Part shown: piece by piece, positions 12,001 to 18,000 of the stretch | How positions within the stretch are numbered: the first letter of the stretch is position 1 | Layout of the letters: each line of letters begins with the position of its first letter | Source of the DNA: Escherichia coli | Lineage (GTDB): Bacteria > Pseudomonadota > Gammaproteobacteria > Enterobacterales > Enterobacteriaceae | Assembly: GCF_017348835.2 (NCBI RefSeq) | Contig: NZ_CP071375.1 | Reading direction: 5' to 3' (one strand) | DNA: 64,000 nt | Program-made: the position numbers

Positions 12001-15000
12001 CACTTTTGCAACGCGCGTTATGCAGGACAGGCAGTAAATCGAGCCCGTTCTCTTTTTGCATATAGATATCGAGCAATATCAGGTCGATAGGCGTATCGCT
12101 ATTGAAGATAATCTCTTTGGCTTTCTCCAGCGTCGAGGCTGTTCCACAGCATTGAAAGCCTGGGATTTGTGCTACGTATCGGCGATTCAGCTCCGCGACC
12201 ATTGCGTCGTCATCGATAATTAATACATTGATCATCTGTTCGACCTCTCCCCGTCCCAGGGTATCTGGACAAAAAATTGTGTGAAAATCCCGGGTTCCGA
12301 TTCCACGGCGATGCTGCCGCCGAGATTTTCTACCTGTTGTTTGACAAGTGCTAAACCGACGCCTCGCTCGCTTCCTTTTGTCGAGACACCTTTGTCAAAA
12401 ATGTGATCGATTTTGTCGGGTGCGATCCCCGGTCCATCATCGTTAACTTCGCAGTGCAGCCAGCCGTGACGGTAGTGCAATGTTACGCTAATTTCGCCAC
12501 CGGGTTCCGGCCCTAATGCTTCCAGCGCGTTTTCTATCAGATTTCCCAATGTGGTAATCAGCGTCGCGACCTGGTCCTCACTGCCGCTGTCTGGCAGCTG
12601 GCTTTCACTGTTTAAAATCAGCGTATGGCCTAAATCGGTCGCGCGGTTAATCTTGCTGATTAAAAAACCAGCGATAACCGGAGATTTGATCTTACCCAGC
12701 AGAGAGCCAATCTCTTCCTGATAGTTATTGGCTGTTTTGAGAATGTAATCTTCCAACTGCTTATAACTCTTCAGATGCAATAATCCGAGAATCACATGCA
12801 ATTTATTCATAAATTCGTGGGATCGTTCACGAAGTGCGTCAGCATAGTTGACCAGACCATCGAGTCGCTGCATCAGTTTACGTACTTCGGTTTTGTCCCT
12901 GAAGGTTGAAATGGCACCGATGATAACGCCATTACTGCGCACCGGAACGGTGTTGATCAGTAATAGCCGGTCTTTAATCGTAATCTCTTCGTCGCGGCGC
13001 GGGGTACCGTCGCGTAACACCTCCGAGACATCTACCACCTGTGACCATGAGTGGCTTAGCGTCGACAGTTTCTCATCGTCCTGCGACTTACGGTAATTCA
13101 GCAATTCTTGTGCGGCATCGTTGATCAGCGTGACCTCGCCGCGATCATCCACGGCAACGACGCCTTCTTTGATAGACTGCAACATGGCCTGGCGTTGCTC
13201 AAACAGCGTGGAGATTTCGTAGGGTTCCAGGCCGAAAAGGATTTTTTTCAGTACCTTAACCAAAATGCAGGTGCCAATCAGTCCGACCAGCATGCCAAAT
13301 AATACCGACCAGATAATGCTCCAGCGACTGTCATTGATCTGTTGGGTCACGCGGCTTAACTCAAGGCCGATCGCCACCACGCCAATTTGTTTATGATTTT
13401 CATCGTAGATGGGGGTAAATACGCGTAAAGCCTGCGCCAGAAAACCGCGATTGATAGCGACATTTTCTTCGCCATTCAGCGCTTTAAGGATGTCATCACC
13501 TTTAAATGGCTGACCAATACGCTGGGCTTCAGGATGCGAGTAGCGAAGACTTTGCATATCGGTAACGACAATAAACAGCAGATCGTTGCGTTTGCGCACG
13601 GCTTCCGCGATGGCCTGGATGCCGCTCTCCTGCGGTTTTTTCTGCAAGCCCTGACGGATTTCCGGCGAGTCGGCGAGAGTACGCGCCACAGCCAGTGCCT
13701 TGTTGGCTAGCCCGTCTCGCGTCATATCACTGATTTGCGAGAAGTAAATCAGATGCACCACCAATAGCACCGAGAACAGTACCGCGCTGACCATTAAGAT
13801 CACTGTGGTACTCAATTTCATCGGACGTTTGCGTAACATGCGGTAGGGCAATGAATGTCTCATCAGCTTCCTTGTGTGACAAATTTCTTAAGCATTATCT
13901 CTGATGAGGCGGGTAATTCAAAGGGAGTAAGAATGATTGGCTATATAGGGGAAGAGACTCTGGCAACGGAAACTGCCAGTGCTGTATGAAGATTCCGGGG
14001 CTATGCTTATAGTGAAAACCATACTGATGAGAGAGGGAAGGTCATGGATCAGGCGCTACTTGACGGGGGTTATCGCTGTTATACCGGCGAAAAGATCGAT
14101 GTCTATTTCAATACTGCAATATGTCAGCATTCTGGCAATTGCGTACGTGGTAACGGCAGGTTATTTAACCTCAAACGTAAGCCGTGGATCATACCGAATG
14201 AAGTCGACGTTGCCACTGTGGTTAAAGTGATTGATACGTGCCCGAGCGGCGCGCTGAAATACCGTCATAAATAAGCGAGGGTAAAATGGAAATACGCGAA
14301 GGCCACAATAAATTTTACATTAATGACGAACAAGGCAAGCAAATCGCTGAAATTGTCTTTGTGCCGACCGGAGAGAATTTAGCGATTATCGAACATACCG
14401 ATGTCGATGAAAGTCTGAAAGGGCAAGGGATTGGTAAACAGCTGGTTGCGAAAGTCGTGGAAAAAATGCGTCGGGAAAAACGAAAAATTATCCCACTATG
14501 CCCATTTGCGAAACACGAATTTGATAAAACGCGGGAGTATGATGATATTCGCAGTTGATGGGAGAGTACAGATTCACGATATTTTTCATGCTCTCCACGG
14601 TGTGATGCAGGAGAGCATCTGAAGGGTAGGGGGATGCACAAAGAATGGGCAGAGAGCGCGTTTTTTTGTCCCAAGTCATCCCCTTTACTGAGCAAAAAAA
14701 AGAATATCTCCTATATGAGAATCATCAATCGGGGTTAATAAGTTTTGCGTCCCCAGAGCGTTCAATATTGATAGGAGTCATATTATGGAAGGTAAAAACA
14801 AGTTCAATACTTATGTTGTTTCTTTTGATTATCCATCATCTTATTCCTCAGTGTTCTTAAGGTTAAGATCATTGATGTATGATATGAATTTCTCTTCTAT
14901 CGTGGCTGATGAATATGGGATACCACGACAATTGAATGAAAATTCCTTCGCAATAACGACATCGTTAGCCGCAAGTGAAATCGAAGATTTAATCAGGCTT

Positions 15001-18000
15001 AAATGCTTAGACTTACCGGATATTGACTTTGACCTCAACATTATGACAGTTGATGACTATTTCCGTCAGTTTTACAAGTAGCCAGGAAGGATAAGAAGAA
15101 CATAAAAAATGGCACTATTCTCTAAAATATTAATTTTTTATGTGATTGGTGTGAACATATCCTTTGTCATTATCTGGTTTATCTCACATGAGAAAACACA
15201 TATTCGTTTACTTAGTGCATTCCTGGTCGGAATAACCTGGCCAATGAGTCTGCCTGTGGCATTACTTTTTTCTCTCTTTTAGGAGCTGTAGTTGAGTGGA
15301 CCCGCTGGTTATCGTGAAACGAAGCGTCTCTCCTCAAAACTGGATTTGCGGAACGATGAACGAAGCAGTCGCCTGACTGCTTCGTTCACTAAAGTGAAAT
15401 TTATTTCTGTGGGCGCATCGCCGGGAAGAGAATAACGTCGCGAATAGTATGGCTGTTAGTAAACAGCATAATCATTCGGTCGATACCAATACCCAGACCA
15501 GCGGTTGGCGGCAGACCATATTCCAGCGCAGTCACGTAATCTTCGTCATAGAACATGGCTTCGTCGTCACCTGCAGCTTTAGCGTTAACCTGTTCCTGGA
15601 AACGTTCAGCCTGGTCTTCTGCGTCGTTTAATTCGCTAAAACCATTACCGATTTCACGACCACCGATGAAGAATTCAAAACGGTCGGTGATTTCCGGGTT
15701 AACATCATTACGGCGTGCCAGCGGTGACACTTCTGCCGGATATTCCGTAATAAAGGTTGGCTGAATCAGATGTGCTTCTGCCACTTCATCAAAGATCTCC
15801 GTGACAATACGTCCCAGCCCCCAGCTTTTCTCTACCGTAATACCGATAGATTCAGCTAATGCTTTAGCAGCATCAAAATTATCCAGGTCGGCCATATCGG
15901 TTTCTGGACGATATTTTTTGATTGCTTCGCGCATGGTGAGTTTTTCAAACGGTTTGCCGAAATCAAACACATGCTCGCCATAAGTGACTTTAGTGGTACC
16001 CAGAACCTCTTGTGCCAGGGTGCGGAACAGTGACTCTGTCAGTTCAATCAAATCGTGGTAATCCGCATACGCCATGTAGAGTTCCATCATTGTGAACTCA
16101 GGATTATGGCGAACAGAAATACCTTCATTACGGAAGTTACGGTTGATTTCGAATACCCGTTCAAAACCGCCTACAACCAGACGTTTCAGATACAGCTCCG
16201 GCGCGATACGCAGATACATATCTAAATCCAGAGCATTATGATGGGTAATAAACGGGCGAGCAGATGCCCCACCTGGAATTACCTGCATCATCGGGGTTTC
16301 TACTTCCATAAAGCCGCGCGCGACCATGAACTGACGGATAGCGGCCAGAATTTTTGAACGGATAACAAACGTTTGACGGGATTTATCGTTAGCGATGAGG
16401 TCCAGATAACGTTGACGATAACGGACTTCCTGATCCTGCAGACCATGGAATTTATCTGGTAAAGGACGTAGTGCTTTTGTCAGCAGGCGCAACTCAGTAC
16501 AGTGAATGGAAAGCTCACCCGTTTGCGTCTTAAACAGCGTACCGCGGGCACCGATAATGTCACCCAGATCCCATTTTTTAAACTGATCGTTATAAACACC
16601 TTCTGGCAGGCTATCTCGTGCGACGTACAGTTGAATACGGCCACCGACATCCTGCAACGTTACAAAGGAGGCTTTCCCCATGATACGACGGGTCATCATT
16701 CGGCCAGCAACCGAGACTTCAATGTTTAAGGATTCCAGTTCCTGGTTATCCTTCGCATCAAACTCTTCGTGCAACTGGTCAGAGGTATGGTCGCGACGAA
16801 AATCATTGGGAAATGCCACACCTTGCTGACGTAGTGCCGCCAGTTTTTCGCGGCGATTTCTCAGTTCATCGTTAAAATCAATAGCCTCATTGGCTCCCCG
16901 TGTTTCTTGTTCAGACATTTTGGTTCCTCTAAATCCAGCTTTCAATTTAGCGTAGATAAAGAGACAGATCGGTACACTGTATTATCTGCCTCGACTATTA
17001 GTAACTCAGTTTATCTTATCGAAACTAACGCTTACCTCAAGTTGATATCACTAATAAATAACCATCAAAATGGTTTAAATGACTTATTAATATCGATTTG
17101 CTAGTGTTATAAACTGAAAGTTAATTTATTCATAACTAATTGTTTTTACGACAGTTAATCGTTGCTCTCCTGTACCATATTCGTCGGCGTGCTAAACAGA
17201 AAACGGGTAGCAAAGGCCAATACGACGATGATCGCGACACAAGCCAACGTCCACTCTCCCATCTGAGAAAAGAATCGCTGGTAAGCTGCAATTGCCATAC
17301 CGCTAATTTGCGACTCTGTCGTCTGCTGTGCCACTACGCCTGCCAGCCAGTTGGCGACCGCGCCTGTTGCCAGCATATAAATCCCGGTTAATACGCCAGA
17401 CATTTTCAGACGCGTGATTTGCGCAATCGCCACCGGGTCAATAAAGAGTTCGGCAAAGCCCATTAGCGCCAGCCCGGATACCATCACGCCCATTGACGCT
17501 TGACCGTCAGCTGCTGCATGTCGGGCATCAAATGCCAGCAACATAAAGCCACAAGCCATCAGCAGTAAGCCAAAGGCAAACTTCAGCCAGACGCGCAATG
17601 TTGAGTTGCCGTGGCTTTCTGGCGACGCCAGCCAGGCCAGTACAACCCCAGCGAGCATCACCGCAATTGCATTCACCGACTGGAATAGTGCTGTAGGTAC
17701 TTCAATATTGAATGCCTGACGATTCACAAAGCGATCGATAAACAAGCTGATGGTACTGCCGCCCTGTTGTGCCAGTACCCAGAACAACGTCCCGACAAAC
17801 ATCAACAATACAATTTGCCAAAGAGCACGGCGGTGTTCGGGGAATTTGATCATCATGCGGGCAATGATTTGTGCGGCGATAAGGCAAACGATCGCCAGCA
17901 AATATCCGGACCAGTCGTTCTCCAGCAGCAGAGTAAAAAATACTGGGGCTAAACAGAGCATCACCACTAACCAGCTCCATACTGGTAAGGCAAATTTGAC

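What the first reader, a model, noticed from the sequence alone, without database searches (positions are those of the whole stretch)
14785..15282. Intact type V toxin-antitoxin pair ghoS-ghoT, with ghoT missing from the ORF track
The 57-codon ghoT (15109..15282) is below the ORF-track cutoff but translates cleanly to the known GhoT peptide, 27 nt downstream of ghoS with its own RBS. Small membrane toxins like this are easily missed by automated annotation. The intact core-genome TA pair contrasts with the decayed cbeA/cbtA module in the island.
Basis: partly seen in the sequence, partly recalled or inferred. Interest (0 to 1): 0.25.

Follow-up and report, generated by a model that had tools for sequence, protein, structure and literature searches.

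The report
Ordinary, intact ghoS-ghoT toxin-antitoxin operon

Summary
ghoS (14785..15081, 98 aa) and ghoT (15109..15282, 57 aa) are intact ORFs on the + strand, 27 nt apart. They sit between yjdJ and the convergent lysU gene, as in E. coli K-12.

- **Identity:** both proteins are 100% identical to K-12 GhoS and GhoT. The ghoT coding sequence and the spacer match K-12 at every base, so any GhoS cleavage site mapped in K-12 ghoT mRNA is preserved. GhoS matches PDB 2LLZ at 98 of 98 residues.
- **MqsR sites:** the published asymmetry is present, with three 5'-GCU sites in ghoS and none in the spacer or ghoT.
- **Distribution:** the operon occurs in about 98% of 5,426 complete E. coli genomes.
- **Annotation:** RefSeq annotates both genes in every full-length hit examined. 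"Missing from the ORF track" therefore reflects a 60-aa length cut-off, not an annotation gap.
- **RBS caveat:** ghoT's only good Shine-Dalgarno match (AGGAAGGA) lies 17 nt before the AUG, which is unusually far.
- **Side remark confirmed:** cbeA in the neighbouring island is cut at residue 103 and cbtA is absent.

Verdict: real, correctly identified, already known and of very low interest.

The parts
14559..14784 (+). yjdJ-ghoS intergenic region, presumed to hold the ghoST promoter (not located)
   Evidence: 98% mean column identity across 6 E. coli lineages, with an A-tract of 8-10 A at 14694..14701. No sigma-70 consensus match at 9/12 or better falls inside it. The only + strand match (14521..14549) lies within yjdJ.
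14772..14778 (+). Shine-Dalgarno sequence of ghoS (UAGGAGU), 6 nt before the AUG
   Evidence: Anti-SD duplex -6.8 kcal/mol.
14785..15081 (+). ghoS, the type V antitoxin (endoribonuclease GhoS, 98 aa)
   Evidence: Intact ORF. Pfam PF11080 E=6.1e-41. 100% aa identity to K-12 b4128, with 5 nucleotide differences and no amino-acid change. 98/98 identical to PDB 2LLZ chain A. RefSeq product name.
14905..15007 (+). The three 5'-GCU (MqsR-preferred) sites of the ghoS coding region, starting at 14905, 14997 and 15005
   Evidence: Counted. The same count of three was found in all 6 alleles compared. The role of GCU sites comes from PMC4344625 and PMC4905990.
15082..15108 (+). 27-nt ghoS-ghoT spacer, identical to K-12 and invariant in the 6 alleles
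   Evidence: No terminator-like site and no stable structure (junction fold -5.6 kcal/mol).
15084..15091 (+). SD-like AGGAAGGA upstream of ghoT, 17 nt before the AUG (atypically long spacing)
   Evidence: Best anti-SD duplex in the 25 nt before ghoT, -6.0 kcal/mol.
15109..15282 (+). ghoT, the type V toxin (57-aa two-helix membrane peptide); GCU-free
   Evidence: Intact ORF. Pfam PF10753 E=8.9e-26. 0 nt and 0 aa differences from K-12 b4559. The same RefSeq protein WP_001173343.1 appears in PE164, CFT073 and three other lineages. GRAVY 1.5, two hydrophobic segments separated by HEKTHIR, and F38 present. 0 GCT.
15357..15388 (.). 14-bp perfect hairpin (UGAACGAAGCAGUC-GCCU-GACUGCUUCGUUCA) between the convergent ghoT and lysU genes. 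It is a possible bidirectional terminator or 3' stabiliser, and neither strand has a U-tract.
   Evidence: MFE -25.0 kcal/mol (+) and -25.1 kcal/mol (-). The intrinsic-terminator scan does not call it, because no T-run follows.

Best explanation
This is the canonical chromosomal ghoST operon of E. coli, the founding type V toxin-antitoxin system. ghoS encodes a stable endoribonuclease. ghoT, 27 nt downstream on the same strand, encodes a 57-residue, two-helix hydrophobic peptide that damages the inner membrane and lowers ATP when made. In unstressed cells GhoS cleaves the ghoT part of the transcript in A/U-rich stretches, so little or no GhoT is translated. Under stress the type II toxin MqsR cuts at 5'-GCU. 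The ghoS portion has three such sites and ghoT has none, so the antitoxin message is lost preferentially and GhoT is made. Shown here: gene integrity, identity to the characterised K-12 genes, the GCU asymmetry, synteny and population-wide conservation. Taken from the literature and inferred by identity: the RNase activity, membrane toxicity, co-transcription and the MqsR cascade.
For: Intact ORFs at the stated coordinates. Pfam GhoS and GhoT_OrtT matches far above threshold. Proteins 100% identical to K-12, with ghoT and the spacer 100% identical at nucleotide level. GhoS identical to PDB 2LLZ. Same neighbours as K-12: dcuS, yjdI, yjdJ upstream and lysU, dtpC, cadA downstream. Present in 5318-5341 of 5426 complete E. 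coli genomes and annotated as ghoS/ghoT. Three GCU sites in ghoS and none in spacer plus ghoT, in this window and in 5 other alleles. This agrees with PMC4344625 (GCU sites 'absent in ghoT mRNA') and PMC4905990 (ghoT is one of 14 E. coli mRNAs lacking GCU). Mechanism summaries come from PMC3997798, PMC5408214 and PMC5086665. ghoT is 64.9% A+T, consistent with A/U-rich cleavage targets.
Against: Nothing in the sequence argues against it. Limits: no promoter could be located by consensus. The ghoT SD is 17 nt from the AUG. mqsRA lies outside the window, so the cascade partner was not verified for this genome. The zero-GCU count in a 174-nt gene is not significant on its own (mononucleotide shuffles give 0 sites in 9.5% of cases). 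The primary papers (PMC3514572, PMC3620836) were not available, so exact cleavage positions could not be read.
Confidence: 0.96

Rival explanations
1. The pair is intact in sequence but does not behave as a toxin-antitoxin switch in nature. GhoT would be essentially never translated, given the poor SD spacing and constant GhoS cleavage. GhoS would be kept for another role as a general RNase acting on other transcripts.
For: The ghoT SD-like element is 17 nt from the AUG. PMC3997798 reports that forced GhoS expression lowered about 20 other transcripts, of purine and pyrimidine metabolism.
Against: GhoT protein is invariant (one RefSeq protein, WP_001173343.1) in the five other lineages compared: K-12, CFT073 and three further strains. 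All 4 variable ghoT sites are synonymous. That indicates purifying selection on the peptide itself. Published work reports ghoT-dependent phenotypes.
Confidence: 0.08
2. The 57-codon ORF is a chance ORF or an overlooked, unannotated gene, so reporting it would add a new gene call.
For: It falls below a 60-aa ORF cut-off. NCBIfam holds no HMM for either protein.
Against: Pfam E=8.9e-26. 100% identity to K-12 b4559. RefSeq annotates it in every full-length hit examined.
Confidence: 0.01
3. The small ORF is the orphan paralogue OrtT (YdcX) rather than GhoT.
For: GhoT and OrtT share one Pfam family (PF10753).
Against: It is 100% identical to GhoT at the ghoT locus next to ghoS. It has no GCU sites, whereas ortT mRNA has two (PMC4344625).
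Confidence: 0.005

Closest known systems
E. coli K-12 ghoS-ghoT (b4128/b4559; formerly yjdK/yjdO), the type V TA prototype (Wang et al. 2012, Nat Chem Biol 8:855, as cited)
   Same: Both proteins are identical. The ghoT CDS and the 27-nt spacer are identical base for base. Gene order and neighbours are the same, and so is the GCU distribution (3 in ghoS, 0 in ghoT).
   Different: There are five nucleotide differences in ghoS, none changing an amino acid (14862, 14895, 14943, 15000, 15027), plus six substitutions in the flanking intergenic regions. No functional difference is expected.
OrtT (YdcX), orphan GhoT-like toxin of E. coli (PMC4344625)
   Same: Same Pfam family (PF10753): a small two-helix membrane-damaging peptide.
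   Different: OrtT has no adjacent antitoxin, is not neutralised by GhoS, and its mRNA carries two GCU sites. The ORF here is GhoT itself, not OrtT.
CbtA/CbeA (YeeV/YeeU) type IV TA module of CP4-44-like elements
   Same: It is another chromosomal TA module, found in the same window inside the island beyond cadC.
   Different: Here it is broken. CbeA stops matching at residue 103 of 122 (Pfam positions 1-86 of 101) and no CbtA is detectable. Its mechanism is also unrelated: protein-level protection of the cytoskeleton rather than mRNA cleavage.

Membership tests
GhoS antitoxin (Pfam PF11080; PDB 2LLZ) | Sequence match to the GhoS family model above the curated threshold | tested here: met
   138.8 bits against a cut-off of 21, E=6.1e-41, profile positions 6-93 of 94.
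GhoS antitoxin (Pfam PF11080; PDB 2LLZ) | Identity to the experimentally characterised K-12 protein and its solved structure | tested here: met
   0 aa differences from b4128. 98/98 identical to 2llz_A.
GhoS antitoxin (Pfam PF11080; PDB 2LLZ) | Endoribonuclease activity specific for ghoT mRNA | not testable with these tools
   Inferred from identity of both the enzyme and the substrate RNA to K-12. The activity is described in PMC3997798 and PMC4344625.
GhoT toxin (Pfam PF10753 Toxin_GhoT_OrtT) | Sequence match to the family model above the curated threshold | tested here: met
   90.4 bits against a cut-off of 22.1, E=8.9e-26, profile positions 1-55 of 55.
GhoT toxin (Pfam PF10753 Toxin_GhoT_OrtT) | Small (57 aa) peptide with two hydrophobic helices, and Phe38 present (the residue targeted by the published ghoT F38R plasmid construct) | tested here: met
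   GRAVY 1.5. Kyte-Doolittle maxima lie over residues ~3-26 and ~34-57, with a polar HEKTHIR loop, and residue 38 is F. The F38R construct is listed in PMC4344625; that F38R abolishes toxicity is my recollection, not something read in the held text.
GhoT toxin (Pfam PF10753 Toxin_GhoT_OrtT) | Membrane damage and growth arrest on expression | not testable with these tools
   Inferred from 100% identity to K-12 GhoT.
Type V toxin-antitoxin system (ghoST) | Antitoxin gene immediately upstream of the toxin gene on the same strand, with no terminator between them | tested here: met
   27-nt spacer. No terminator-like site and no stable fold at the junction.
Type V toxin-antitoxin system (ghoST) | Co-transcription of ghoS and ghoT from one promoter | tested here: inconclusive
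   No sigma-70 consensus match in the 226-nt upstream intergenic region, although that region is 98% conserved. This needs transcript data.
Type V toxin-antitoxin system (ghoST) | ghoT mRNA carries the GhoS target sequences | tested here: met
   The ghoT CDS and spacer have 0 nucleotide differences from K-12, where cleavage was mapped. Exact site positions could not be read because the primary paper is not held.
Type V toxin-antitoxin system (ghoST) | MqsR cascade: GCU sites in ghoS but none in ghoT | tested here: met
   Three sites (14905, 14997, 15005) against none. The same holds in all 6 alleles.
Type V toxin-antitoxin system (ghoST) | mqsRA present in the same genome | not tested
   mqsRA lies outside the 64-kb window. 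No search was run for it.

The most novel reading that the evidence does not exclude
Two features of the operon may be undescribed control elements that set how much GhoT is made once the mRNA escapes GhoS. One is the 17-nt distance between ghoT's only good Shine-Dalgarno match and its AUG. The other is the U-tract-less 14-bp hairpin (15357..15388) shared with the convergent lysU gene. The first would act as a built-in translational throttle and the second as a shared 3'-end stabiliser or bidirectional terminator.
Probability: 0.1. Interest if true: 0.15.

Novelty: already known. Interest (0 to 1): 0.04.

Why it matters
It matters very little. The result confirms that this genome, a LEE-positive E. 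coli essentially identical to pig isolate PE164 over the window, carries the standard core-genome ghoST module unchanged. It also shows that a 60-aa ORF cut-off hides known small toxin genes. That is a useful reminder for scan design, but it is not a biological discovery.

Tried and rejected
- **Primary papers.** I tried to read the two primary papers (PMC3514572, PMC3620836) for the exact GhoS cleavage positions. Neither is held. I relied on reviews and on nucleotide identity to K-12 instead.
- **NCBIfam.** It has no model for either protein. This is uninformative, not negative evidence.
- **Rfam and ARAGORN.** Rfam at gathering threshold and ARAGORN over the whole window found no RNA family and no tRNA. 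No known sRNA overlaps the operon.
- **Promoter and terminator scans.** The consensus scan found no promoter in the upstream intergenic region and no canonical intrinsic terminator. I did not assign a promoter by eye.
- **Extra constraint on ghoT mRNA.** I tested whether ghoT mRNA is under extra nucleotide-level constraint relative to ghoS, since it is an RNase substrate that avoids GCU. Across 6 alleles there are 4 variable sites in 174 nt of ghoT and 9 in 297 nt of ghoS (Fisher p=0.78), so there is no support. The zero-GCU count alone is also not significant (P=0.095 by shuffling).
- **An artefact.** The apparent 55% variability of the yjdJ-ghoS spacer came from an ungapped comparison across a 1-2 nt A-tract indel. 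The proper alignment shows 98% identity.
- **Large database scans.** I did not run the large protein or metagenome scans, because 100% identity to the type member already settles membership.
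Full report
**Observation.**
- The first is 14785..15081 (ATG to TAG, 98 aa). The second is 15109..15282 (ATG to TAG, 57 aa).
- They are separated by 27 nt (15082..15108).
- The second ORF is absent from a default ORF list only because the default threshold is 60 aa.
- Flanking genes are dcuS (-), yjdI and yjdJ (+) upstream, and the convergent lysU (-, stop at 15401) downstream.

**Identity.**
- Pfam assigns the 98-aa protein to GhoS (PF11080, E=6.1e-41) and the 57-aa protein to Toxin_GhoT_OrtT (PF10753, E=8.9e-26).
- The K-12 MG1655 reference has the same layout: ghoS b4128 of 297 nt, a 27-nt gap, and ghoT b4559 of 174 nt, between yjdJ and lysU.
- A base-by-base comparison of 842 nt gives 11 substitutions and no indels. 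Five are in ghoS and change no amino acid. None is in the spacer or in ghoT. Both proteins are 100% identical to K-12.
- GhoS is identical at 98/98 residues to the NMR structure 2LLZ, deposited as YjdK.
- tBLASTn with GhoT and GhoS against the window gives one perfect hit each and no paralogue.

**Population context.**
- An 821-nt query spanning the operon matches 5341 of 5426 complete E. coli genomes, 5264 of them over at least 80% of its length, almost always once per genome.
- The 498-nt operon alone matches 5318 genomes.
- RefSeq annotates both ghoS and ghoT under the match in all 20 best hits and in all 59 full-length hits of a 60-row sample spread across the whole ranking.
- The claim that this toxin is easily missed therefore does not apply to current annotation. 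The out-of-series K-12 locus tag b4559 suggests it was added after the original annotation (inference).
- The 60th row of the sample, strain ET220, shows what loss looks like. An IS1 sits 55 nt after the first 50 nt of ghoS, followed directly by tRNA-Phe and yjdC. So ghoS', ghoT, lysU, dtpC and the cad operon are deleted.

**Mechanistic features that can be read from sequence.**
- *MqsR sites.* The literature describes GhoS as a stable endoribonuclease that cleaves ghoT mRNA in A/U-rich regions. It describes MqsR, specific for 5'-GCU, as preferentially destroying the ghoS part of the transcript and so releasing GhoT synthesis (PMC3997798; PMC5408214; PMC5086665; PMC4905990; PMC4344625).
  - In the window, ghoS has three GCU sites (14905, 14997, 15005). 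The spacer and ghoT have none.
  - The same 3-versus-0 pattern holds in K-12, CFT073 and three other lineages.
  - On its own, zero GCU in 174 nt is not statistically remarkable: 9.5% of mononucleotide shuffles give zero.
- *GhoS target.* ghoT is 64.9% A+T. Because ghoT and the spacer are base-identical to K-12, every GhoS cleavage site mapped in K-12 is present. I could not list their positions because the primary paper is not held.
- *The peptide.* GhoT is strongly hydrophobic (GRAVY 1.5). It has two hydrophobic segments separated by HEKTHIR, and it retains F38, the residue targeted by the published ghoT F38R construct (construct listed in PMC4344625).

**Translation and transcription signals.**
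- ghoS has a canonical SD (UAGGAGU, 14772..14778) 6 nt before its AUG.
- ghoT's best anti-SD match is AGGAAGGA at 15084..15091, 17 nt before its AUG. That is well outside the usual 5-9 nt (established knowledge).
- "Its own RBS" is therefore only loosely true. A weak, poorly spaced RBS would fit a toxin kept at low translation, but this is inference.
- No sigma-70 consensus match lies in the 226-nt yjdJ-ghoS spacer, and no canonical terminator is called anywhere in 14500..15500.
- The upstream spacer is nevertheless 98% conserved across six lineages, apart from an A-tract of 8-10 A at 14694..14701.
- Between ghoT and lysU there is a perfect 14-bp hairpin (15357..15388, about -25 kcal/mol on either strand) without a following U-tract. 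It may serve both convergent genes.
- Rfam finds nothing in the window.

**A hypothesis tested and dropped.** I asked whether ghoT is more conserved at nucleotide level than ghoS, as might be expected for an RNase substrate. It is not. There are 4 variable sites in 174 nt of ghoT against 9 in 297 nt of ghoS (Fisher p=0.78). All ghoT changes are synonymous, and GhoS has one polymorphism, N85S.

**Surroundings.**
- Window 1..35420 is 100% identical to E. coli PE164, a pig isolate (NZ_CP114128.1). Window 35421..64000 differs from PE164 by 3 mismatches.
- Beyond cadC the window enters an island. It holds an integrase fragment, CP4-44-like genes, IS fragments, and then a LEE type III secretion island with intimin beta.
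CbeA residues 1-103 of 122 are present at 26226..26534 (-), within an ORF that then runs into unrelated sequence (Pfam positions 1-86 of 101). No CbtA is detectable in the window at E<=1e-3.

**Comparison with what is known, and verdict.** This is not merely like ghoST. It is ghoST, the founding type V TA system, at its canonical chromosomal position, with both proteins and the toxin mRNA identical to the characterised K-12 versions. Every sequence-testable membership criterion is met. The biochemical criteria are inherited by identity. OrtT, the orphan paralogue, is excluded by identity, synteny and GCU content. Novelty is "already known", and interest is very low (0.04). The only mildly non-obvious points are the long SD-AUG spacing and the U-tract-less hairpin shared with lysU.

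Noticed in passing
window 24396..64000 (ler about 33741..34112 +; eae about 54595..57414 +): Directly beyond cadC the window enters a pathogenicity island. It holds an integrase fragment, CP4-44-like genes, IS fragments and an apparently complete LEE type III secretion locus with intimin type beta, going by the annotation of the near-identical strain PE164. No tRNA gene is found anywhere in the window, so the pheU attachment tRNA expected near cadC is not within it.
   Followed up: partly
window 26226..26534 (-): cbeA is truncated. Residues 1-103 of 122 are 100% identical to K-12 CbeA, then the reading frame runs into unrelated sequence (183-aa ORF 25983..26534). The partner toxin gene cbtA is entirely absent from the window.
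   Followed up: yes
window 455..2724 (-): adiA (arginine decarboxylase, acid resistance) is split into two ORFs of 340 and 416 aa that overlap at 1474..1477. PE164's RefSeq record marks it 'frameshifted'. It could be a real pseudogene or an assembly error.
   Followed up: partly
L007 (E. coli ET220, NZ_CP100981.1) 1501..2717: In this strain only the first 50 nt of ghoS remain. An IS1 follows, and then tRNA-Phe and yjdC. So ghoT, lysU, dtpC and cadCBA are deleted in one IS1-associated event.
   Followed up: partly
window 14694..14701: An A-tract upstream of ghoS varies in length between E. coli lineages: 8 A here and in K-12, 9 A in two of the other four lineages and 10 A in the other two. The rest of the intergenic region is otherwise 98% conserved.
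   Followed up: no
window 15357..15388: A perfect 14-bp hairpin with a 4-nt loop lies between the convergent ghoT and lysU genes. It has no U-tract on either strand, and three of the seven variable sites of the ghoT-lysU intergenic region fall in it (15357, 15378) or directly beside it (15354).
   Followed up: partly
E. coli genome search results: Three of the roughly 5,340-5,380 matching places for the ghoST region are on plasmids rather than chromosomes, and a few genomes carry 2-3 copies.
   Followed up: no
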